Below, one piece after another: positions 124-23,136 of a stretch of 32,000 nucleotides of DNA. The DNA is from Trichodesmium erythraeum IMS101. Lineage in GTDB: Bacteria; Cyanobacteriota; Cyanobacteriia; Cyanobacteriales; Microcoleaceae. The stretch is taken from contig NC_008312.1 in the NCBI RefSeq assembly GCF_000014265.1, forward strand, positions 6,420,001 through 6,452,000. Direction: 5' to 3'. The notes under the pieces were generated by a model. That model searched no databases. It was not told where the DNA came from and saw only the letters and a list, made by a program, of their open reading frames with translations. Each line of letters begins with the position of its first letter. Position 1 is the first letter of the stretch. A program made the position numbers and the translations under genes.

Positions 124-1143
124 ATGACACCAGCAGTTTTAATAGAAAATCTTCAAAAAAGTTATGGTTCATCCGTAGCAGTTAAAGACGTTTCCTTTAA
201 GATAGAATCTGGAGAAATATTTGGTTTACTTGGCCCCAATGGTGCTGGCAAAACAACTACTCTACGCGCTCTATGTACACTAATTACACCAGATGCTGGA
301 CGCTTAGAAGTATCAGGTATTTCGGTGGTTGACCAACCAAGAATAGCCAGACAACGCCTTGGGTATGTTGCCCAAGAAGTAGCATTAGACAAAGTATTAA
401 CAGGTCGAGAACTACTGGAACTTCAAGGAGCAATATATCATATCCCTAGCAAACTGGCCAAAGAAAGAATCGACAAAGTGATTAGTCTTCTTGAGATAAA
501 AGACTGGGCAGATAAAAAAACTGGTACTTACTCTGGTGGTATCCGTAAACGTCTTGACCTAGCAGCAGGTTTGTTACATCAACCAGATGTCTTAGTTTTA
601 GATGAACCTACAGTCGGTTTAGATATTGACAGTAGGGTAGCCGTATGGGATTTTTTGCGTCAGTTACGCGACTCAGGCACAACAGTTTTGATCACTAGTC
701 ACTATCTTGAAGAAGTGGATGCTTTAGCAGACCGGGTAGCTATTATTGATAAAGGGGTGGTTATTGCAACTGGTACTCCTTCGGAACTTAAAGATCGAGT
801 AGGAGGCGATCGCATCACTTTGCGCATTAGAGAATTTTCTCCTGCTGAAGAAGCAGAAAGAGCTAAAACATTACTGGCTCCCCTGCCAATAGTTCAAGAA
901 GTTATTATCAATGCTGCTCAGGGCAATTCTTTAAACCTAGTTGTTACACCCCAGAGCGATGCTTTAATCAAAATTCAACGATCATTACAAGAAGCTGGTT
1001 TACCTATTTTTGGTATTGCTCAAGCACGACCAAGTCTAGATGACGTTTATTTAGCAGCAACAGGAAAAACCTTAATGGATGCAGAATTAGCTGCTTCTAA
1101 TAGTCGAGACTTAAAAGCAGAGAAAAAACAGAGCATGCGCTAG
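124..1143 (+). CDS. ABC transporter ATP-binding subunit (ABC-2/DrrA-like exporter ATPase)
   Basis: 339-aa ORF with Walker A GPNGAGKTT, ABC signature YSGGIRKRL, Walker B VLVLDEPT and H-loop TSHY. It also has a ~100-aa C-terminal extension, as in DrrA-type ATPases. Confidence 0.9.
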   Translation: MTPAVLIENLQKSYGSSVAVKDVSFKIESGEIFGLLGPNGAGKTTTLRALCTLITPDAGRLEVSGISVVDQPRIARQRLGYVAQEVALDKVLTGRELLELQGAIYHIPSKLAKERIDKVISLLEIKDWADKKTGTYSGGIRKRLDLAAGLLHQPDVLVLDEPTVGLDIDSRVAVWDFLRQLRDSGTTVLITSHYLEEVDALADRVAIIDKGVVIATGTPSELKDRVGGDRITLRIREFSPAEEAERAKTLLAPLPIVQEVIINAAQGNSLNLVVTPQSDALIKIQRSLQEAGLPIFGIAQARPSLDDVYLAATGKTLMDAELAASNSRDLKAEKKQSMR

Positions 1144-1153
1144 TCAAAAGTAA

Positions 1154-1333
1154 ACAGTCAAAACTTAAAAGTCAAAACTTAGAAAAAAATTTAGGAGTCA
1201 ACAATTCAGCAAGTATTTATAATTAATATTTCACTGAGAATTTGACTCCTGATTAACCTAAAAGTCAAAACTTAAAAGTCAAAAGTCAGAAAAAAATTTA
1301 GGAGTCAACAACTCAGTAAATATTTATACTTAA
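1154..1333. repeat. Intergenic direct repeat: two ~70-bp copies with a 107-bp period, built on AGTCAAAA motifs
   Basis: agtcaaaacttaaaagtcaaaa(c/g)t(t/c)agaaaaaaatttaggagtcaacaa(t/c)tcag..tatttata occurs at ~1156..1226 and ~1263..1333. The spacer contains ttgactcct, the inverse complement of the aggagtcaa in copy 1. Confidence 0.8.
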
Positions 1334-1362
1334 TCCTTTTTATAATTGTAAAGGATTTCAAT

Positions 1363-2166
1363 TTGATTAATGTCCTAACACCTAAAAATTCTATGAATAT
1401 ATATCAGATCCTAAAACAAAGCCAACGTTTAAGAATTAGTGATGGCCAGACTGTTCCTATTCTCAGTGGTTGTGAAAATGTTAATCGTCTGTTAGTTTTA
1501 ATCTGGTCACAATTGGGCGATTTTGATAATCTCGAATATGCTTGGTGGTTACAACGAGAATCAGCAAAATTGCAAGAATTGGGGATAACACTACGGGCGA
1601 TCGGTATTGGTAATTACGCTTCTGGTGAGAGATTTTGTAAATATACCAAATTTCCCACTGAATCATTATTTGTCGATCCAGATGCCAAATTACATCAAGA
1701 ATTAGAATTATATCAGGGATTAACCTGGAAATTTCCCTTATTAAATAAAGGTCAAAGTGCTTTCCTCAATTTAATGATCATGTGTGCAGGCATTGGTAGT
1801 CCAGGCACTTTAAGAGAAGTACTGAGAGGTTATCTAGGGGATAAAAAAGCACCTCAACTAATTGATGCTCATGAAGTAATTCATGCTAAACCTTTACCAC
1901 CCCTAAAGGGTTCATTTTTTAACCTTGCAGGTGGAAAAGGTTGTCAACGTCCTTTTGAACTAGCAACACTCAGGTTAAGAAACATGACCGAAGTCCTAAG
2001 TAATTGGTCAACCTATATACCTAATTCTAGTTATTTAACTCAAAGAGGCGCCACTTTTCTCTTTGATCATCAGGGAAATTTGTTGTACAAACATTGCGAT
2101 CGCGGCATTCTAGGTTTTGCCGAAGATAAAAGTAACCCTCTATCTTTTGTTTTAAATAGAGAATAG
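1363..2166 (+). CDS. AhpC/TSA_2-like thioredoxin-fold protein (peroxiredoxin-like, no obvious CxxC)
   Basis: 267-aa ORF. The region LVLIWSQLGDFDNLEYAWWL...LRAIGIGN...FVDPDAKLHQELELY resembles cyanobacterial AhpC/TSA-family proteins. The ORF-track start is TTG at 1363; the ATG at 1393 is the more likely start. Confidence 0.6.
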   Translation: MINVLTPKNSMNIYQILKQSQRLRISDGQTVPILSGCENVNRLLVLIWSQLGDFDNLEYAWWLQRESAKLQELGITLRAIGIGNYASGERFCKYTKFPTESLFVDPDAKLHQELELYQGLTWKFPLLNKGQSAFLNLMIMCAGIGSPGTLREVLRGYLGDKKAPQLIDAHEVIHAKPLPPLKGSFFNLAGGKGCQRPFELATLRLRNMTEVLSNWSTYIPNSSYLTQRGATFLFDHQGNLLYKHCDRGILGFAEDKSNPLSFVLNRE

Positions 2167-2437
2167 GGAATAGGAAAACATTAGGAAAAAATAGGTGTAG
2201 GGATATTGTCCTTTCATCCCATTTTCGCCCTTTTGTGGTGACTAAACCCCGGATTTATAAAATATTACAACATAAGTGCGGATTTCTATCAGAGCATACG
2301 CAACCAAACAAAAAAACCGGGTTTATTCCCATGACTATTGTTTTTCGCAATTCGATGGCAAATTTTGTTACCAACCCAGTTCCTACCTAAGTCGTGTCTG
2401 TTAAAGTCGATACTGGTCTAGCGTTAGTAAAAATTTC

Positions 2438-3289
2438 TTAATTCAGCCAGTCAGCGATCGTTCCTATTTGCTCTTTTGATAATAAAGGCGGGTTATGACC
2501 ACAAGGAAAATGCTTAACATTTATTTGAGGATGAATAGATTGCATTTTCTCAATAGTTTTTGGTAACAATAAATAAGATTCTTCACCATGTAACAATAAT
2601 ACCGGACAACTTACTGATGACCAAGTTTGCCAAAAATCAATTGGCTTAGGTTCACCTACATTAGATCTAAATATATCTATAATGGAAAAATCGTAGTGTA
2701 ATTGATATTTGTCTTCGGAAGTCTTTTTTACAGTATGTTTAGCTATATGTTCCCATTCTGAATCAGTTAAAGCACCATAACCAGAATAAAATTTTTTCAC
2801 ATATTCTGTTACTTGAGTCAAATTTTCAAAATCAGATCTGTCTTGACTTAAATATTGTCCTGCCCAACGTCTCAAGTTTTCAGGAAAAATCTCTGGACCA
2901 ACATCATTCATAACCAATCTGTTAATTAAAGAATTGTTTTGAGAGGCAATAAACATTCCAATTAAGCCTCCCATTGATGTTCCTATCCAATCAACATTAC
3001 TTAGATGTAGTTGATTAATTAAAGTTAACATATCTGAGATATAAAGAGGTAGACCATAATCAGATGAATTGAATAGCCAATCACTTTTCCCTCTGCCTAC
3101 TATATCTGGGCAAATAACTCGATATTTTTGCTGCAAGGTAGCTGCTAAATAGTCAAAATCTCTCCCTGTACGACTAAAACCATGAACACAAATTAATACT
3201 CTTTTATTTTCAGGATTACCCCATTGAGTATAAGCTATCCGATGTTGACCGTTTGGGTTTTTACATTCTATATATTCATACTGTACCAT
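2438..3289 (-). CDS. alpha/beta-fold hydrolase
   Basis: 283-aa ORF with an HG oxyanion motif (ICVHGFSRTGRDF), nucleophile elbow GTSMGG, and C-terminal LLLHGE...GH typical of the alpha/beta hydrolase fold. Confidence 0.85.
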   Translation of the reverse strand: MVQYEYIECKNPNGQHRIAYTQWGNPENKRVLICVHGFSRTGRDFDYLAATLQQKYRVICPDIVGRGKSDWLFNSSDYGLPLYISDMLTLINQLHLSNVDWIGTSMGGLIGMFIASQNNSLINRLVMNDVGPEIFPENLRRWAGQYLSQDRSDFENLTQVTEYVKKFYSGYGALTDSEWEHIAKHTVKKTSEDKYQLHYDFSIIDIFRSNVGEPKPIDFWQTWSSVSCPVLLLHGEESYLLLPKTIEKMQSIHPQINVKHFPCGHNPPLLSKEQIGTIADWLN

Positions 3290-3347
3290 GATCTTTCTTA
3301 AAGAGAATTACAATTTTTCTTGATAATATAAATACGCAATATAAATT

Positions 3348-3435
3348 AGGACTTACGCAAAAGCTCTAATTGTAGTAGAATTATATGAATAAATTACCAA
3401 CAAGACAATACATATAGCTGTACTACGTAAGTCCT
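3348..3435. repeat. 88-bp unit bounded by inverted termini AGGACTTACGCA / TACGTAAGTCCT
   Basis: The 12-nt termini are reverse complements at 11 of 12 positions. The same termini bound a second unit at 28770..28865, and single copies occur elsewhere (14316, 24756, 7088). Confidence 0.6.
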
Positions 3436-3762
3436 ATAAATTTTATTCTTCAAATTGTGGGAAGGTTGCATAAAACCTCTGTACCTACTCCCCTATTCCT
3501 GATCCAGAAACAAAGGAAATCCTGGGTTTCTACTTAGGAGAAAGGAGAGAAAAAGGTACAAAGTGAACTCAAAAATCGCCATATTCAAGGAAGTTATAGC
3601 GATCACTTTTCAAACTTAACTGTTAATTTTTAAGTTACTCCTGCATAGTAATGATTAATTCATAAGAACAATGCCTAGCAAGGGAGCAAGATACTCCAAC
3701 TGCCCTTCGTATTGACCAAAATCATTACGATAGACCACCACTACCATGAACAACCGACACTT

Positions 3763-4380
3763 TTAGCTTTCGGCAGGATCTATCATAATCTTGAGGTTAT
3801 CAAAACTCATATTTAAGAACTCACCTTTCACAGGCGCATCTATTAAAAAGCCAATCTTAGACTCCAAGTTTGGATCATTGTCAGCAAAAGTATACTTAAA
3901 CGACCATTGCTTTGTTTCTCCCCATGCAACGCGAGGCTTTGAACTAGATGTTTCAATAGCAGTAGTAAGCAATGTGCCAGGATTATCTTTATTCCCTCCC
4001 ACAGTCAGGCCAATGTAATCAGCATGAGCAAGATCTGCTGATACACCGTCGTCGTTCTTGGGTCCATCGAAGTTGCAGACATCAATAGTTACAGCATATT
4101 CCCCAGGAACTAAAGGAAAATCGAAATTAATAAAGGCTTTTCCTCCGTAATCTGGAAAACTATTAGCCATTCCCAGTGTTGTTGAGCCAGCAGTGGCTTT
4201 GCAGCCCTCTGCACCATCAGGAAAGAAGTGATTCTCTGAATTTACAACCCAATCACCATCGTCTTCAATATCATTTGCAATTAGGAATATCTGTTCTTGG
4301 GCAGCGACTATAGTTGGATTCGTGCCTAAGCAAGTTAATACTAGTAGTACTGAAATTACCCATACTAGTATTGATTTCAT
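3763..4380 (-). CDS. hypothetical secreted protein (N-terminal signal peptide)
   Basis: 205-aa ORF. The N-terminus MKSILVWVISVLLVLTCLGTNPTIVAAQ looks like a Sec signal peptide with an AxA-like cleavage site. I recognise no family. It sits between non-coding or degraded flanks. Confidence 0.6.
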   Translation of the reverse strand: MKSILVWVISVLLVLTCLGTNPTIVAAQEQIFLIANDIEDDGDWVVNSENHFFPDGAEGCKATAGSTTLGMANSFPDYGGKAFINFDFPLVPGEYAVTIDVCNFDGPKNDDGVSADLAHADYIGLTVGGNKDNPGTLLTTAIETSSSKPRVAWGETKQWSFKYTFADNDPNLESKIGFLIDAPVKGEFLNMSFDNLKIMIDPAES

Positions 4381-4647
4381 ATTAGGACCTCCAGTTTTTG
4401 TAGTTTAAATAAATACTTATGTAGTTTTTTTTCTCTATGAAAAATTGAACAACGCAGTTTTTAGCTCGGTCTGGAGATGAACCCATAAAGAATTATTTAC
4501 CTTATTCTGATAAATAATAGTAAGAATTTAATATTTTTTTAATAAGTATAAATGACTATAACTTTTTTATTGTATAGCAATCGAATTAAGATGTGAGAAA
4601 CAAAAACTTTAGGGTCCTTGTCTTTTCATCCTATTTTGCCCTCTTAA

Positions 4648-4902
4648 TATGCTGTTGCTGCACAAGATATAGCAGATTTAGTTTATGAAGCTTTCAGTGA
4701 TATTGGTAGAGTTAAAGTTTTTACCCCAGATATGATGATAAGTTGTTTTTGTCTATTAAATAGCGATTTTTGGCTTCTTCCAAACAAACAACAAGAAGAT
4801 TCAGACCAAACCCTGGAGGCAATTAAGCGTCGTCCGGGTCAAGCTCAACTGATTATTTTGCTTGATAGTAAAGTTTTCCCAACTATTCCTAGTATAGCGT
4901 GA
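4648..4902 (+). pseudogene. 5'-truncated gene stub of unknown family
   Basis: An 84-codon open frame (YAVAAQDIADLVYEAFSDIGRVKVF...QAQLIILLDSKVFPTIPSIA*) begins right after a TAA with no start codon until codon ~30. It directly abuts a dispersed ~35-nt repeat at 4610..4647. Confidence 0.35.
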
Positions 4903-5400
4903 TTAGAAAAAGTCCCCACCTATACTTATTCTTAGCTAATCGTTTATATAAATGAGTCGGGTATGAATAGCCAAAACAGTAAGATAATGGATAGATCAAA
5001 AAGGAGAACAATTCTACTCACTTTATACAGGGAAACCTCAAGAGCGTATCAACATGATTGCTGCCCTGTGAATAGGTAAGCCTAAAAGCTACATGGGTGA
5101 AAATCTAGCTAAATTCTAGTCAGGGCCTTAGCTGCGATCGCTACCTTCATTCAACAAAGTCCCAGGAACATCTACTTTCCTTCTTTATCCTTACTTCTTC
5201 CTTCTTCCCTTTCCCTTCTTTCTATAATCAAGACTCTTGACTAGTAACTAAGCTCTGGAGACCTTTTATCATAAAAAAAGCGTTGCTGAATTAAGGTATG
5301 ATTTTAGTCCATAGCGATCGCTATGAATATCTATAAGTAACTGAAACATCCCAAAATTGATATTTACTGAACCAGTAAGAGAATTGAATGCTTTAACCTC

Positions 5401-5560
5401 TCGGAATTATTTTGAGTAGCAAAAAGTCCTTCGATGTCATCTGGCAAGATAATGCCGAAGTCTAGTATTTTCTTCTTCTACTCTGGTCATATAGGTTTTG
5501 CCGATAATTTTATCCCCATAATTAATAGGCCTTGGCATATACTTTCCATCCATCTGTAAC
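5401..5560 (-). pseudogene. IS1-family transposase C-terminal fragment
   Basis: Minus-strand translation gives ...DGKYMPRPINYGDKIIGKTYMTRVEEENTRLRHYLAR*HRRTFCYSKI. This matches the conserved IS1 InsB C-terminus (..GK..T..vEg.NtrlRhylaRl.RkTlCySKs) and has an in-frame stop. Confidence 0.6.
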
Positions 5561-5640
5561 TTAAAAATAACATTCCCCTTTTTTCACTTGTTCCCATAAA
5601 GGATAAAATGTTTTTCCACTAGGATTTCCAATAACCCATT

Positions 5641-5904
5641 CTAAAATTCCTTATGATTAACTCCAAATTTTTTAGCTCTGTCTGCCAATTTAAACTATGG
5701 ATTTAGTTTGACATCTTTTTCTAATTCTTTCAAATCTAATTTTCTGCGACGACATTCTACCTTAGTTGCTTCCAATTTTGAGCGAGATAACCATCTACAT
5801 ATCGAAGCTATTCCTATCCCAAATACATGAGCTACTTCGGTGAGTTTACTACCATTTTCTACAAAATTTATGACTTTTTGTATGAAGTCTAAACTGTAAA
5901 GCAT
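5641..5904 (-). pseudogene. IS630-family transposase N-terminal (HTH) fragment
   Basis: The 69-aa ORF MLYSLDFIQKVINFVENGSKLTEVAHVFGIGIASICRWLSRSKLEATKVECRRRKLD matches IS630-type N-terminal HTH regions. After the stop it continues as FKLADRAKKFGVNHKEF. The DDE domain is absent. Confidence 0.65.
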
Positions 5905-6175
5905 AGTGAAAAATAATTTATAGTTGACTTAAAATTATTCTTCTCAATTTTTCTCTTAATCTTAATTAAAACAACTATAAATGATTTTATTGTTACAGAG
6001 CTAGATTTTGCTTCTCCCGGTTTAACTACGCTAATGGGTGATTTTGTGACTCCACAACCAGGTATTACTGAACTTACTCCATCTCCTGTCATCTTAGAAC
6101 TACTCCCGGAAGTAGTGGGAAATGTTGCCCCTTCTGTAATTGAGTGATTCGAGTATATTTGTGAATGTAGAATTA

Positions 6176-6811: not shown

Positions 6812-6883
6812 GGCGGCATGGCCAAGTGGTAAGGCAAGGGTCTGCAAAATCCTTATTCCCCAGTTCGAATCTGGGTGCCGCCT
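6812..6883 (+). tRNA. tRNA-Cys (anticodon GCA)
   Basis: 72-nt cloverleaf folded by hand. Acceptor stem GGCGGCA/TGCCGCC, anticodon stem AGGGT/ATCCT with loop CTGCAAA, T arm CCCAG-TTCGAAT-CTGGG, discriminator U. CCA is not encoded. Confidence 0.9.
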
Positions 6884-19591: not shown

Positions 19592-20261
19592 TTTTTTCTT
19601 CTCCTGATTAATTTAAGCATCATATCCCTATTATATAAAACATCTCCCAAAATACCTATTTAGGTACAGCGGTGTAAGGGGTAAGGGAACCTTTTCTGGA
19701 TCGGTTGAAGCGAGTGCGTCGGCGCAGCCACCGGAAGAAGTCAAATCTGTGTGTGTGTAAGTCTTACTACAAGCTTTCTGAGATTTCCCAAGTTACAGAA
19801 ACTGAGGTAGTTGGTGGATAATCTTAATAAGTTCTAATTAAGGAATTTTGAGTATCAAGCCTGCCCCTAGTCTTGTAGTTTGCTCTTGAAGAGTAGGCTG
19901 AAAATTATTAGAATATTTTAAAAGCCAGGTTCATAAATTTAGTTCAAACTAAAAACTACTTGTTTTTGGTAAAATCTGGAAAATACTTTTTCTTAATAAT
20001 TAAGACATTGAAATGAAAAATATAGCTATAGCTAATTAACATTTTTATTAATAGAGTTGTTTGGTGTGGGCAAATTTAAAATGCTCAAAAGCTTACTATA
20101 TAAAGTTTTTATGATCTTGGATATAAAAGTGCTATAAACTTTAACTGATAAGGGTTTTAGCTATTTGTTTTCCAAAATTACCAATAACTCTAATTATGGT
20201 ATCAAAGCTTAATAATTAATAAAAATGTTAACTATTTAGTTGTAAATTAGGAACTGTAATT

Positions 20262-20534
20262 ATGCAAGTCTCACAAAATTGCCTAGATTTAATCAAAAAA
20301 TGGGAAGGATTTTCTCTGAATGCTTATATAGATCCAGTAGGAATAGCAACTATTGGGTATGGAAGCATTCGTTATCCCAATGGAGAAAAAGTTCGTCTAG
20401 GAGATAGAATTTCAGAAAGAGATGCAGAAGGATATCTGGGTTTTGAATGTAAGAAAATAGCACTAGAAATTTCTAAATTAATCAAAGTTCCTGTTAATCA
20501 AAACCAATTTGATGCTCTAGTATCTTTTTCTTAT
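20262..20534 (+). CDS. exon 1 of split cell-wall hydrolase gene (N-lobe of GH24 T4-type lysozyme domain)
   Basis: KKWEGFSLNAYIDPVGIATIGYG carries the Glu/Asp/Thr catalytic positions of T4-type lysozymes. Homology ends at ...NQFDALVSFSY. The last 5 codons plus stop of the ORF-track call (VRLVG*) are intron sequence. Confidence 0.85.
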
Positions 20535-21132
20535 GTGCGACTCGTTGGCTAGTAAAAACTGCTTAAAAGCAGCTATAGCAAGCCTTCCAGGTTTTTAAAT
20601 GAAGTGAGTAACTTCAACCTGTGAAAACTCTTATGTCCTTAGTGGTGAAATTCCACCGCCTTGTTGTTGGGTAGAAAGCATAGGCCACGGAGTAGAGACT
20701 GAACATCAATCTCCGAAGCTGGCTTAAATGCGGGAAGATAATAGTTGCCAACGAAAATACCGCTAGCAGAGACTGACAAGTGGACGAATAGGAAGGTAAT
20801 AAAACTCTCGTAAAAGATGGCCATTCCGAAGGTAGCTATGGAATGTAGGACGAAAGTTAGAGGGTTAATGGGTATAGATATATAAGAGTCTATATCAACA
20901 ACCAATACGCACCCTCCGGGAGATTTTACCCCACTAAATCAGTTGTAATAAAGGCATAAGGGAACGAGAAAACCTCCCCAAGACACCTAAGAATATGGGT
21001 CGAGAACTTAGGAAGCCATTCAAGGTTAATCTACGCACTTAGTCGTAGGTCTTAGGGAGAGTAGGATTGGGTAAAAAGCATATCTATGCAGACGTACCCA
21101 CTGTTAGACGTAATGTGAGGTAACAACTAGCA

Positions 21133-21830
21133 ATGAATAAAGCTAAAACACTAAAAAGACATAATGGTAATCCTAATCTCTTTTTAAGTGTGGCATGGGA
21201 TACAGACGATACACTGTCCCAAATTAGTATTAATCCTAATTTCAGCTGGAGAGATATTGATGGGAAACGGGCCCAGAAGAATGTATCTAAGTTGCAAAAG
21301 TTAATTTACATAGCATCCAGCCGTGGCAAAATCCCCAAGATGCGTAAATAGCAAAAACTTCTGACCAAAAGTTATTACTCCTTGTCCCTAGCTTTTAGGC
21401 CCGTGATACAGGTAGACCCGGGGAAGAAAACTGCTGGTATGAACTGAATTAAAAAGCTTCCTCCAATGCAGAGATTTAACTTGGTTGATTCGATTAGCAG
21501 AATTAGTAAATATTCTGGTGTAAGGAAAGAAGTTACGATGCTGTTAAATTGGCAAAAGAATAAATGCGCATCTTATGGATTAACTTTTAGACCAACTGAC
21601 CTAATTGAATTGGACTATTTAATGCTTATTAATGTTTAGGTCTAAAGGTGGTGACAATATATAGAGGAATAAACAGTTGTTGCACCGACATTGTCACGAT
21701 ACTAAAACTGCTTTAGACAAGAAAACATATTTAAAAACAAGGCTACAGGAATTACTTGATGATTATCTGTGGGTTGACAATATGTTGGCGCTAAGGTGGG
21801 GATGTACCTTTTAATTGGGGCGTTTAAGAG
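21133..21830 (+). pseudogene. degraded group II intron reverse transcriptase/maturase (IEP) remnant
   Basis: The 72-aa ORF (..WRDIDGKRAQKNVSKLQKLIYIASSRGKIPKMRK) corresponds to the IEP N-terminus. It continues with stops as QKLL..GKKTAGMN*IKKLPPMQRFNL (RT0). It then jumps to an HNH remnant, SKGGDNI*RNKQLLHRHCHDTKTALD (~21641..21720). No YADD or RT1-7 or X domain is seen. Confidence 0.8.
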
Positions 21831-21832
21831 AG

Positions 21833-21921
21833 GAGCCGTGTGAGGTGAAAGTCTCACGCACGGTTTTGAAGACCAGCAGACACTATAAAGAGTGATCGGA
21901 AATGGGTTTGCTGAGTTTAAC
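21833..21921 (+). ncRNA. group II intron domains V and VI (catalytic core and branch site)
   Basis: Domain V, GAGCCGTGTGAGGTGAAAGTCTCACGCACGGTTT, is a 34-nt hairpin with a GAAA tetraloop matching the DV consensus GAGCCGUAUG..GAAA..CAUACGGUUC. Domain VI pairs GACCAGCA with TGCTG[A]GTT, leaving unpaired A 21914 seven nt before the 3' end. Confidence 0.85.
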
Positions 21922-23136
21922 AATGTAGGAACTGGCGCATTTCAAAGTAGTACCTTATTAAAAAAACTAAATCAAGGAGATTATCAAGGAGCAGCTAATG
22001 AATTTTCTCGTTGGGTAAATGGGGTGGTTAATGGTGTCAAGCAATCACTACCTGGTTTAGTATCTCGTCGTGCTGATGAAAAGAGGTTATTTCTTAAAGC
22101 TGGAGGAGAGAAAAAACCTTTAGAAGATGAAATTTCCAAACAAGATAAAGTAACTTGGTTAGAAGGATATCGTGATGAAAATAAGAAAACTGTAGTTGTA
22201 GCTTGGAATGGGGGTAAAGTAGAAGAAATTTTAACTCTAGAAAAGTTTAATAAAGAGTTATTGGCTAATGTTTTTCCTCAGTATAAAAATGCTAGGTATT
22301 ATGTCACTGCTCCTGGTAATAAACGAATTCCTCCTGGTGAAAGAATTTCAGTTTTTGAAATTTCGGATATATATAATTCTGATAAACTTCCAAAACTCAA
22401 TCGTGTACTAGTGCGAGGGAGTGAAGGTAGTGATGTGAAAATTTTACAAGAGAGATTGAAGGATTTAGGTTATTATCTAGGAGAACTTGATGCTATTTTT
22501 GGTAGGCAAACTGAGCTTGCAGTTATTGATTTTAAAAAAGATTATTTTGGAATCACAACAGATAATGCAACAGTAGAGTCCATAACTTGGAAAAAATTAT
22601 GGGGAGATCCTCTACCTAAACCTCCCGTCTTACCACCCACGTCAAAGAAAAATTATCTACTATTAACAAAGACAAGTCGTAAAGATAGATATGGATGTTA
22701 TGTACTTCACTTAGACTATTTTAAAAGTGGCAAGCTAGAGGACAGGTTAGAAGTTTGTTGCGGTGCCCCTGGAAGGCAATTTTTCCGTACCGCTGCTCGG
22801 AGTCGGGCAATGACTGGAGAACCATTACCAGAGGGAAAGTGGTACATTAATGATATTATTTGGGCTGATGGTCAAGATAATTATTATGGTCAAATTTTTC
22901 AAAGTGGTATTGGCCCTGTAACAGTTCCCTTAGACTATATAGAACCTGGCACAACTGAAAGAAGCGCGATTGAAATTCATATTGACTGGAATCGAAATTA
23001 TGGTTCTCCTGGTACTGTTGGTTGTATAGCTACTTACAACATAGCTGATTATAAAAGGTTTATTACTTGGTTAAGGGATACAGATCCACGGGATCTTTAT
23101 GTTGACTGGAAATTAGGGACTTCTCCTAAACCTTAG
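21922..23136 (+). CDS. exon 2 of split cell-wall hydrolase gene (lysozyme C-lobe, linker, PG_binding_1-like domain, YkuD/Tlde1-like C-terminal domain)
   Basis: Resumes NVGTGAFQSSTLLKKLNQGDYQGAANEFSRWV...GLVSRRADEKRLF (GH24 C-lobe). GSDVKILQERLKDLGYYLGELDAIFGRQTELAVIDFKK is a peptidoglycan-binding repeat. The C-terminus GEPLPEGKWYI...IEIHIDWNRNYGSPGTVGCIA shows a His...GC pattern. The ORF-track start at 21892 lies inside the intron. Confidence 0.82.
   Translation, partial: NVGTGAFQSSTLLKKLNQGDYQGAANEFSRWVNGVVNGVKQSLPGLVSRRADEKRLFLKAGGEKKPLEDEISKQDKVTWLEGYRDENKKTVVVAWNGGKVEEILTLEKFNKELLANVFPQYKNARYYVTAPGNKRIPPGERISVFEISDIYNSDKLPKLNRVLVRGSEGSDVKILQERLKDLGYYLGELDAIFGRQTELAVIDFKKDYFGITTDNATVESITWKKLWGDPLPKPPVLPPTSKKNYLLLTKTSRKDRYGCYVLHLDYFKSGKLEDRLEVCCGAPGRQFFRTAARSRAMTGEPLPEGKWYINDIIWADGQDNYYGQIFQSGIGPVTVPLDYIEPGTTERSAIEIHIDWNRNYGSPGTVGCIATYNIADYKRFITWLRDTDPRDLYVDWKLGTSPKP

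What the first reader, a model, noticed from the sequence alone, without database searches (positions are those of the whole stretch)
20262..23136. Group II intron splits a lysozyme-family cell-wall hydrolase gene inside a conserved catalytic-domain motif
The ORFs at 20262..20552 and 21892..23136 are two halves of one T4-type (GH24) lysozyme domain. The first half carries the Glu/Asp/Thr catalytic positions (KKWEG...YIDPVG...TIGYG) and stops matching the family at ...QFDALVSFSY. The second half resumes with NVGTGAFQSSTLLKKLNQGDY, which together restore the family motif ALvSF.(F/Y)NvG. The intervening 1387 nt has the hallmarks of a group II intron. It begins GTGCGAC. It has a 34-nt domain V hairpin (21833..21866) with a GAAA loop. 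Its domain VI helix has an unpaired A (21914) seven nt from the 3' end, and it ends in AC. Removing 20535..21921 joins TAT|AAT in frame and gives a 495-aa protein. Two internal hexa/heptamers spaced ~60 nt apart (AAAAGAT 20812..20818 and ATAAGA 20882..20887) are exact complements of the last 13 exon nucleotides (ATCTTTT + TCTTAT). That is what EBS2/EBS1-IBS2/IBS1 pairing predicts. Bacterial group II introns usually sit outside genes or in other mobile DNA. An intron that must be spliced to express an enzymatic host gene is uncommon, and would make hydrolase expression depend on splicing.
Basis: partly seen in the sequence, partly recalled or inferred. Interest (0 to 1): 0.8.

Follow-up and report, generated by a model that had tools for sequence, protein, structure and literature searches.

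The report
Known group II intron splitting lysozyme gene

Summary
Exon 1 is 20262..20534, the intron is 20535..21921 (GUGCGAC…AAC), and exon 2 is 21922..23136. Removing the intron gives a 495-aa protein with one complete Pfam Phage_lysozyme (GH24) domain, a PG_binding_1 domain and a YkuD-like C-terminal domain.

- **Intron identity.** Rfam places group II domains V and VI at 21831..21921, ending on the predicted 3' splice site.
- **Exon recognition.** The EBS1 loop pairs 6 of 6 with five different 5' exons in sister introns.
- **Orthologues.** Syntenic orthologues in Trichodesmium, Okeania and Dapis carry the uninterrupted site GTATCTTTTTCTTAT|AATGTAGG.
- **Splicing.** Three public assemblies hold contigs 100% identical to the window with exactly these 1387 nt missing.

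The window is T. erythraeum IMS101 (ABG53183–ABG53186). Pfreundt et al. 2014 list this intron as Tery_4178, a phage-related lysozyme with a peptidoglycan-binding domain, no maturase, 21 split RNA-seq reads. Splicing must therefore be autocatalytic or helped by a maturase from a sister intron, as shown earlier for this species.

Verdict: real, correctly interpreted, already known. Side observations include three introns in the orthologue of another Trichodesmium species.

The parts
20074..20261 (+). Upstream leader present in the intron-less contigs. All three contigs begin at 20074, which may be a transcript 5' end or an assembly-graph break point.
   Evidence: L086-L088 all start at window 20074. 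No convincing -10 box lies upstream, so the TSS reading is unproven.
20262..20534 (+). Exon 1, codons 1-91 of the lysozyme gene. It carries the GH24 E-x8-D-x5-T positions (E15, D24, T30). The annotated ORF (ABG53184.1, 96 aa) reads on into the intron as far as 20552.
20522..20528 (+). IBS2 (ATCTTTT). Pairing can extend to 8 bp as TATCTTTT with AAAAGATG.
20529..20534 (+). IBS1 (TCTTAT), the last 6 nt of exon 1.
20535..21921 (+). Group II intron, 1387 nt, 5' GUGCGAC ... AAC 3', with a degenerate intron-encoded protein.
   Evidence: The intron is precisely absent from contigs L086-L088.
20541..20968 (+). Domain I, closed by the helix CUCGUU/AACGAG.
   Evidence: RNAalifold on 6 sister introns gave 160 pairs, 31 of them with compensatory changes.
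20812..20818 (+). EBS2 (AAAAGAT), in the unpaired stretch 20811..20821 of domain I.
20882..20887 (+). EBS1 (ATAAGA), in the terminal loop 20880..20887 of a domain I hairpin.
   Evidence: the homologous loop pairs 6/6 with five different 5' exons. Searches place it in the loop.
20924..20924 (+). Candidate EBS3 (T), in the 3-nt strand 20923..20925 of an internal loop interpreted as the coordination loop. It would pair with the first exon-2 base, A21922.
   Evidence: this column is A only in the one sister intron whose 3' exon starts with T. This is a single covariation event, so the assignment is tentative.
20972..21062 (+). Domain II.
21068..21100 (+). Domain III.
21133..21495 (+). Remnant of the intron-encoded protein N-terminus (RVT_N / RT0-1, residues 1-122 of a 554-aa relative). 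It contains two in-frame stop codons.
   Evidence: tblastn E 6e-43, stops shown; RVT_N fragment.
21496..21715 (+). Remnant of the C-terminal HNH endonuclease region (…KNKCASYGLTFRP…, frameshift, …LLHRHCHDTKT). RT motifs 2-7 and the maturase (X/GIIM) domain are deleted.
   Evidence: An intact relative has RVT_N + RVT_1 + GIIM.
21833..21866 (+). Domain V, 34 nt, with the AGC triad at 21834..21836, a GAAA loop and an AC bulge at 21856..21857.
21870..21918 (+). Domain VI helix. The bulged branch-point candidate is A21914.
21922..23136 (+). Exon 2, codons 92-495 plus the stop codon. It encodes the rest of the GH24 domain (to about 22080), PG_binding_1 (about 22426..22545) and a YkuD-like C-terminal domain (about 22717..23085). 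The annotated ORF (ABG53185.1) starts artificially at GTG 21892, inside the intron.

Best explanation
A non-autonomous group II intron sits in the chromosomal gene for a conserved cyanobacterial cell-wall enzyme of Trichodesmium erythraeum IMS101. It belongs to the IEP-degenerate, chloroplast-like/IIB-type family that is abundant in Trichodesmium and Okeania. The host protein combines a GH24 lysozyme domain, a PG_binding_1 domain and a YkuD-like domain.

The gene is transcribed through the intron. Domain I loops EBS2 (20812..20818) and EBS1 (20882..20887) pair with the last 13 exon nucleotides. A probable EBS3 (T20924) pairs with A21922. By analogy with all group II introns, the bulged A21914 of domain VI attacks the 5' splice site and the intron leaves as a lariat. 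This joins ...TTTTCTTAT|AATGTAGGA... and gives mRNA for one 495-aa protein.

The intron's own reverse transcriptase/maturase is destroyed, so the intron can no longer move by itself. It must either self-splice or, more likely, use a maturase supplied in trans by a related intron of the same genome.

Shown: the exon/intron anatomy, the ribozyme motifs, EBS1 covariation, the empty orthologous sites, and the existence of precisely spliced sequences. Inferred: the lariat chemistry, dependence on a trans maturase, and any regulatory consequence.
For: - **Rfam.** D5-D6 hits end exactly at the predicted 3' splice site.
- **Host protein.** The spliced product has a full-length Phage_lysozyme match, and the two halves match profile positions 1-76 and 77-125. 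It also matches solved endolysins contiguously over residues 3-150.
- **Orthologues.** Eleven orthologues of 494-518 aa (76-84% identity among the close Trichodesmium/Okeania relatives, 55-61% in more distant cyanobacteria) align gap-free over FSY|NVG. Those with pdxJ upstream and Band_7 downstream, as in the window, carry the identical uninterrupted DNA site.
- **Splicing.** Contigs L086-L088 come from three sequencing runs. They equal window 20074..20534 + 21922..>=23868 at 100% identity with the intron precisely absent, and they encode the predicted 495 aa.
[quoted passage not shown] The window proteins are ABG53183-ABG53186 of IMS101, and the 414-aa ORF is tagged Tery_4180.
- **EBS1 covariation.** EBS1 pairs 6/6 with five different exons.
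- **Fold.** The D1-D3 consensus fold has 31 compensatory pairs.
- **Selection on the ribozyme.** Compared with the orthologous intron of Trichodesmium MAG_R02, D1-D3 are 93.9% and D5-D6 98.9% identical. The exons are 88.6-91.1% identical and the ORF remnant 75.6%.
- **Dead IEP.** The remnant lacks RT motifs 2-7 and the maturase domain.
- **Trans maturase.** This has been reported for this species (Meng et al. 2005, cited in PMC4143802 and PMC4649490; reviewed in PMC4424553).
Against: - The library type (RNA or DNA) of the three runs behind L086-L088 could not be verified. In principle they could be DNA of an intron-less but otherwise identical strain.
- The paper's tag Tery_4178 could not be tied to coordinates because no supplement is held. 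The link rests on the gene description, the 'no maturase' entry and the adjacent tag Tery_4180.
- No Rfam D1-D4 model matches the intron. The D1-D3 architecture therefore rests on a consensus fold of only six related sequences.
- No intact sister maturase was pinned down. The nearest relatives of the IEP remnant in the protein database are almost all truncated, at 92-290 aa.
Confidence: 0.93

Rival explanations
1. The anatomy is the same, but the intron splices autocatalytically in vivo without any maturase. It would be a true ORF-less self-splicing intron.
For: The ribozyme domains are more conserved than the flanking exons, and all core motifs are intact. [quoted passage not shown] One bacterial ORF-less intron, C.te.I1, self-splices robustly (PMC4424553).
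Against: Bacterial ORF-less introns nearly always occur with related IEP-encoding introns, and trans help has been demonstrated in this very species. Sister introns with RVT_N+RVT_1+GIIM proteins exist in the family.
Confidence: 0.3
2. The intron is dead, or splices too poorly to matter. The lysozyme gene would then be a disrupted pseudogene whose two ORFs are relics.
For: Public annotation treats the two halves as separate proteins, ABG53184.1 and ABG53185.1. The IEP is degenerate.
Against: Precisely spliced contigs exist and split reads are published. Both exons are intact and conserved, with no stops or frameshifts. The ribozyme shows a conservation pattern consistent with purifying selection.
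Confidence: 0.03
3. The intron-less contigs L086-L088 are genomic DNA of a T. erythraeum population that lacks the intron (an insertion polymorphism), not spliced RNA.
For: Library type is unverified. The contigs run on into the convergent Band_7 gene. Metagenome contigs of this species show variation in the intron.
Against: Identity to IMS101 is 100% over 2.4-2.65 kb, including non-coding DNA. The six genomic or metagenomic contigs of this species that were retrieved (L001-L006) all carry the intron. All three contigs share the same 5' end at 20074. Independent published split reads exist.
Confidence: 0.1

Closest known systems
The Tery_4178 lysozyme intron of Trichodesmium erythraeum IMS101 (Pfreundt et al. 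2014, Sci Rep 4:6187, PMC4143802, Table 2)
   Same: The organism is the same: the window proteins are ABG53183-ABG53186 of IMS101. The host gene description matches (phage-related lysozyme with a peptidoglycan-binding domain). Both have no maturase, and splicing is shown by split RNA-seq reads. This is almost certainly the identical element.
   Different: Nothing substantive. The paper gives no splice-site, EBS/IBS or IEP-remnant detail in the text held here, and those are supplied by this analysis. The locus tag in the paper (4178) is that of the 5' part; the 3' ORF is Tery_4180.
ORF-less DnaN and RIR group II introns of T. erythraeum, spliced with the help of a sister intron's protein (Meng, Wang & Liu 2005, J Biol Chem 280:35085; cited in PMC4143802 and PMC4649490)
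   Same: The genome is the same, the introns sit inside conserved protein-coding genes, and they lack a functional IEP. The proposed reliance on a maturase acting in trans is also the same.
   Different: The host gene differs. Maturase dependence of the lysozyme intron itself has not been tested.
Organellar (chloroplast/mitochondrial) splicing-only group II introns in housekeeping genes (reviewed in Zimmerly & Semper 2015, PMC4424553)
   Same: The intron is immobile, carries IEP remnants, lies in a gene whose expression requires splicing, is vertically inherited, and has a conserved ribozyme core. The best Rfam D5 hit is a plastid ndhA/ndhB D5 model.
   Different: The host is a free-living bacterium. 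The ribozyme is not degenerate, and no host-encoded splicing factors are known.
Thermosynechococcus elongatus group II intron family with ORF-less derivatives (Mohr et al. 2010, PMC2882425)
   Same: It is a cyanobacterial, chloroplast-like lineage family in which many copies have lost the IEP and depend on relatives.
   Different: Here the intron interrupts a catalytic-domain motif.

Membership tests
Group II intron (ribozyme) | 5' boundary consensus GUGYG | tested here: met
   GUGCG at 20535..20539. It is conserved in sister introns, with one GUGUG variant.
Group II intron (ribozyme) | Domain V: a hairpin of about 34 nt with an AGC triad, a 2-nt bulge and a GNRA loop | tested here: met
   21833..21866. 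Rfam RF00029 scores 56.1 bits (gathering score 40) and RF04357 scores 58.6 bits (gathering score 53).
Group II intron (ribozyme) | Domain VI with a bulged adenosine 7-8 nt from the 3' splice site, and a 3' end AY | tested here: met
   A21914 is the single bulge in both the Rfam alignment and the MFE fold. The intron ends AAC.
Group II intron (ribozyme) | EBS1-IBS1 and EBS2-IBS2 pairing between domain I loops and the 5' exon | tested here: met
   6 + 7 (up to 8) bp here. The EBS1 loop covaries 6/6 with 5 different exons, and EBS2 pairs 4-8 bp. Both lie in unpaired stretches of the consensus fold.
Group II intron (ribozyme) | Six-domain secondary structure (D1-D4 part) | tested here: met
   The RNAalifold consensus of 6 sister introns gives D1, D2 and D3 with 160 pairs, 31 of them compensatory. 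Caveats: there are only 6 related sequences, and no Rfam D1-D4 model hits.
Group II intron (ribozyme) | Accurate excision in vivo | tested here: met
   Intron-less contigs carry the exact predicted junction, and split reads are published. The library type of the contigs is unverified.
Group II intron (ribozyme) | Branching (lariat) at the domain VI adenosine | not testable with these tools
   This needs lariat RT-PCR or debranching assays.
Mobile group II intron retroelement (with functional IEP) | Intact RT/maturase(/En) ORF in domain IV | tested here: not met
   Only residues 1-122 remain, with 2 stops, fused to an HNH remnant. RT2-7 and GIIM are absent. The intron is therefore filed as a non-autonomous derivative, not as a mobile retroelement.
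Subgroup IIB / chloroplast-like lineage | EBS3 in the coordination loop pairing with the first 3'-exon base; lineage-typical D5 | tested here: inconclusive
   Candidate T20924 is supported by one covariation event. The best D5 hit is a plastid model. No IEP phylogeny was run.
GH24 / Pfam Phage_lysozyme (host gene) | Full-length domain match and the E-x8-D-x5-T catalytic positions | tested here: met
   PF00959 matches 1-125/125 with E 3.8e-43. E15, D24 and T30 are read from the sequence. PDB endolysins match at E 1e-40.
GH24 / Pfam Phage_lysozyme (host gene) | Muramidase activity | not testable with these tools
   This needs an enzyme assay of the 495-aa product.

The most novel reading that the evidence does not exclude
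This lysozyme gene may be a long-term, organelle-like intron host. The dead-IEP intron seems to have been inherited vertically since before T. erythraeum and the MAG_R02 Trichodesmium lineage split, and its ribozyme core is more conserved than the exons. Sister lineages have accumulated three or more introns in the same gene, including a 27-nt micro-exon and a twintron. If splicing efficiency, set by availability of a trans maturase, limits production of this cell-wall hydrolase, the intron would act as a post-transcriptional gate on peptidoglycan remodelling or autolysis in a bloom-forming cyanobacterium.
Probability: 0.12. Interest if true: 0.55.

Novelty: already known. Interest (0 to 1): 0.2.

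Why it matters
As a discovery it adds little. Trichodesmium is the textbook bacterium with many spliced group II introns in host genes, and this intron is in the published list.

It has practical value for annotation. GenBank and RefSeq-style annotations, including those of many Trichodesmium MAGs, still list the gene as two proteins: a 96-aa 'lysozyme' and a 414-aa 'peptidoglycan-binding protein' with an artificial GTG start inside the intron. The exact boundaries, EBS/IBS sites and branch point given here would allow correct joined annotation.

The comparative side observations give material for studying how immobile introns persist and multiply in bacterial genes. These are the conservation of the ribozyme above exon level, the multi-intron orthologues and the micro-exon. 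That topic bears on models of intron evolution.

Tried and rejected
- **Rfam at permissive E-value over 20400..22050.** No group II D1-D4 model matched, only D5/D6 and a chance snoRNA hit. The D1-D3 structure therefore had to come from a family alignment.
- **blastn of the intron against plasmids.** Only the ~50-nt D5 region matches other cyanobacterial introns. This was uninformative for origin.
- **Promoter scan.** There were no more sites than in shuffled sequence, and none lay suitably upstream of 20074. The common 5' end of the three contigs cannot be called a TSS.
- **Literature search for the three SRA run accessions.** Nothing was found, so the library type is unverified.
- **Supplement of PMC4143802.** It is not held, so intron coordinates for Tery_4178 could not be compared directly.
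- **Search for the closest intact maturase using the IEP remnant.** 93 hits came back, nearly all truncated remnants of 92-290 aa. No trans-maturase candidate could be named.
- **Rejected readings.** Two independent genes is ruled out. A prophage endolysin is ruled out by the conserved pdxJ-lysozyme-Band_7 synteny across genera. A frameshift or assembly artefact is ruled out because the identical intron-containing locus occurs in 6 independent assemblies.
Full report
**1. What is in the sequence**

The window holds two same-strand ORFs, 20262..20552 (96 aa) and 21892..23136 (414 aa). Between the proposed splice sites lie 1387 nt that begin GTGCGAC and end AAC.

Joining 20534 to 21922 keeps the frame (TAT|AAT) and yields a 495-aa protein. 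Against Pfam, the first ORF covers Phage_lysozyme profile positions 1-76 and the second covers 77-125. The spliced protein covers 1-125/125 with E 3.8e-43, followed by PG_binding_1. A C-terminal YkuD-like region scores just under threshold, at 22.6 bits against 23.4.

The spliced N-terminus matches solved endolysins and P22-type lysozymes contiguously over residues 3-150, with a best E of 1e-40. The GH24 E-x8-D-x5-T positions are E15, D24 and T30, read directly from the sequence.

**2. The intervening sequence is a group II intron**

Rfam at gathering thresholds finds Intron_gpII (domains V-VI) at 21831..21921, scoring 56.1 bits against a threshold of 40. The hit ends on the last nucleotide of the proposed intron. 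A group II D5 model hits 21830..21870 at 58.6 bits.

Domain V is the 34-nt hairpin 21833..21866, with the AGC triad, a GAAA loop and an AC bulge. In the minimum-free-energy fold of D5-D6 the only bulge in domain VI is A21914, which is followed by 7 nt.

No Rfam D1-D4 model matched. I therefore aligned the 5' 600 nt with five sister introns found in related genomes. The consensus fold gives a closed domain I (20541..20968), domain II (20972..21062) and domain III (21068..21100). It has 160 pairs, and 31 of them carry compensatory changes.

**3. EBS/IBS**

The two motifs are exact complements of the last 13 exon nt. By themselves they are weak evidence. In 2.4% of shuffled introns both motifs occur in the right order and spacing.

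The strong test is covariation. Sister introns sit at five different sites in orthologous lysozyme genes of Trichodesmium sp. MAG_R02 (L021) and Okeania sp. SIO1I7 (L059). In every case the loop homologous to 20880..20887 pairs 6/6 with the last six nucleotides of its own 5' exon:

| EBS1 | IBS1 |
|---|---|
| ATAAGA | TCTTAT |
| ATAACA | TGTTAT |
| TCCATA | TATGGA |
| GTCTAA | TTAGAC |
| ACTTTG | CAAGGT |
| TTTTGA | TCAAGA |

The EBS2 stretch pairs 4-8 bp. A candidate EBS3 (T20924) lies in a 3-nt strand of an internal loop. It changes to A only in the one intron whose 3' exon begins with T. This is a single event, so it remains tentative.

**4. One gene, not two**

A protein search returned hundreds of proteins of about 500 aa covering 100% of the spliced query. 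The closest, at 80-84% identity, are from Okeania, Dapis, Hydrocoleum and other Trichodesmium species. Eleven of them align across FSY|NVG without a gap.

In genomes where pdxJ lies upstream and a Band_7 gene downstream, as in the window, the DNA at the site is uninterrupted. It is often identical to the window's exons: GTATCTTTTTCTTAT|AATGTAGGAACTGG. These are true orthologues with empty sites.

**5. Evidence of splicing**

A cluster look-up found a 495-aa protein (P0145) identical to the predicted spliced product. It is encoded on contigs assembled from three sequencing runs: SRR32466007, SRR3181806 and SRR32466000.

The contigs match window 20074..20534 joined directly to 21922 onward at 100% identity, with exactly the 1387 nt missing. 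All three begin at 20074. I could not verify that these runs are RNA-seq. No good promoter lies upstream of 20074. The inference that they are transcripts is therefore likely but unproven.

**6. Identity and prior knowledge**

The window's pdxJ, 96-aa ORF, 414-aa ORF and Band_7 proteins are exactly ABG53183.1, ABG53184.1, ABG53185.1 and ABG53186.1 of Trichodesmium erythraeum IMS101. The 414-aa ORF carries the tag Tery_4180 in one source.

Pfreundt et al. 2014 (PMC4143802) mapped split RNA-seq reads in IMS101. [quoted passage not shown] The description, the lack of a maturase and the adjacent locus tag make this the same intron. I could not compare coordinates because no supplement is held.

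Pfreundt & Hess 2015 (PMC4649490) note that ten of the 17 introns lack an ORF. They state that these must self-splice or use trans-encoded factors, and that the latter was shown by heterologous expression (Meng et al. 2005). Zimmerly & Semper 2015 (PMC4424553) give the general context. ORF-less bacterial introns are rare and nearly always accompanied by related IEP-encoding introns. Residence in housekeeping genes is a feature of cyanobacterial CL/ML lineages.

**7.

Domain IV contains a dead intron-encoded protein. Residues 1-122 (RVT_N/RT0-1) align to a 554-aa relative at 68% identity but carry two in-frame stops. They are fused directly to a remnant of the C-terminal HNH region that has a lost cysteine and a frameshift. 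RT motifs 2-7 and the maturase domain are gone.

The closest database relatives of this remnant are themselves nearly all truncated. The intron therefore cannot encode its own maturase or move autonomously.

**8. Evolution**

The orthologous intron is at the same site in Trichodesmium sp. MAG_R02 (86% identity overall, also lacking most of the IEP). Identity between the two by region:

| Region | Identity |
|---|---|
| D1-D3 | 93.9% |
| D5-D6 | 98.9% |
| Flanking exons | 88.6-91.1% |
| ORF remnant | 75.6%, with many gaps |

This pattern indicates vertical inheritance of an immobile intron with selection on the ribozyme, that is, on splicing. The intron is absent from Trichodesmium MAG_R03 and MAG_R04, Dapis and most Okeania. 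Okeania sp. SIO1I7 has an intron at the same site.

**9. Mechanism and verdict**

The best-supported mechanism is ordinary group II splicing of a non-autonomous intron. The gene is co-transcribed with the intron. The 5' exon is recognised by EBS1 and EBS2, and the 3' exon probably by EBS3. Branching at A21914 is inferred. A maturase from a sister intron probably helps in trans; this is inferred from the literature on this species and was not tested here.

The remaining value is precise annotation and the comparative notes listed separately.

Noticed in passing
L021:179-7191 (Trichodesmium sp. MAG_R02, JAKQYE010000029.1): The orthologous lysozyme gene carries three group II introns within its first 100 codons. 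Intron A is 216..2799 (starts GUGUG, 554-aa RVT_N+RVT_1+GIIM ORF). Intron B is 3036..4450 (orthologue of the window's intron). Intron C is 4478..6003. Introns B and C are separated by a 27-nt micro-exon (4451..4477) that still holds IBS1 and IBS2 for intron C. Removing all three gives a 495-aa ORF. A public 450-aa protein (P0134) equals the product with B and C removed, apart from one substitution elsewhere in the protein.
   Followed up: partly
L059:141-8457 (Okeania sp. SIO1I7, NZ_JAAHGF010000024.1): A homologous lysozyme gene (synteny not confirmed for this locus) is interrupted at three sites: after codon 34, after codon 91 (the same site as the window) and near codon 356. The first intron (243..4043) looks like a twintron. 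An unrelated-looking inner intron (about 918..3305, starts GCGCGAC, 458-aa RVT_N+RVT_1+GIIM ORF) is inserted just after domain III of the outer intron. The outer D3 loop also holds an AT-rich insertion of about 100 nt.
   Followed up: partly
L001:8644-10030 (metagenome scaffold LEEM17-1_SAMN05368346 scaffold_10), equivalent to window 20535..21921: The locus and exons are the same, but 61 of the 63 differences from the window fall in two patches, 20812..20910 (EBS2-EBS1 region) and 21718..21824. The replaced EBS loops no longer pair with the lysozyme exon (3 bp at best). This is either a chimeric assembly through a paralogous intron or gene conversion that would disable exon recognition.
   Followed up: partly
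window 22717..23085 (exon 2, C-terminal domain): The C-terminal ~160 aa match the YkuD L,D-transpeptidase catalytic domain just below threshold (E 1.7e-4). They keep an invariant H…G(T/S)xGC motif (H444, C459) across orthologues. The protein may therefore combine muramidase and L,D-transpeptidase-like activities. There is no obvious signal peptide at the N-terminus.
   Followed up: no
window 20262..20552 and 21892..23136: Public annotations of IMS101 and of many Trichodesmium strains and MAGs still list the two halves as separate proteins, 'lysozyme' (96 aa) and 'peptidoglycan-binding protein' (414 aa). The first reads 18 nt into the intron. The second starts at a GTG 30 nt inside it.
   Followed up: yes
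window 20074: All three intron-less contigs (L086-L088) start at exactly this base, 188 nt upstream of the ATG, although no sigma-70-like -10 box precedes it. This could be a transcript 5' end, a processing site or an assembly-graph break.
   Followed up: partly
protein database hits to the IEP remnant of window 21133..21640: 93 relatives were found in Trichodesmium, Okeania and marine metagenomes, and nearly all are fragments of 92-290 aa. They include IMS101 Tery_4733, Tery_3635 and two 'RNA-directed DNA polymerase' entries of ~262 aa. In the available data this intron family is dominated by decayed IEP copies.
   Followed up: no
L059:8901-9187 and L069:7114-7400 (minus strand): There are strong Rfam hits (118-126 bits) to RF02514 '5' ureB small RNA', a Helicobacter antisense sRNA family, just downstream of the Okeania lysozyme genes. 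Most likely the model is simply recognising the conserved 5' coding region of a urease ureB gene.
   Followed up: no
window 6812..6883: A tRNA gene (Rfam tRNA, 63.3 bits) on the + strand is the only other Rfam gathering-level hit in the window. No second group II intron is present in the 32 kb.
   Followed up: no
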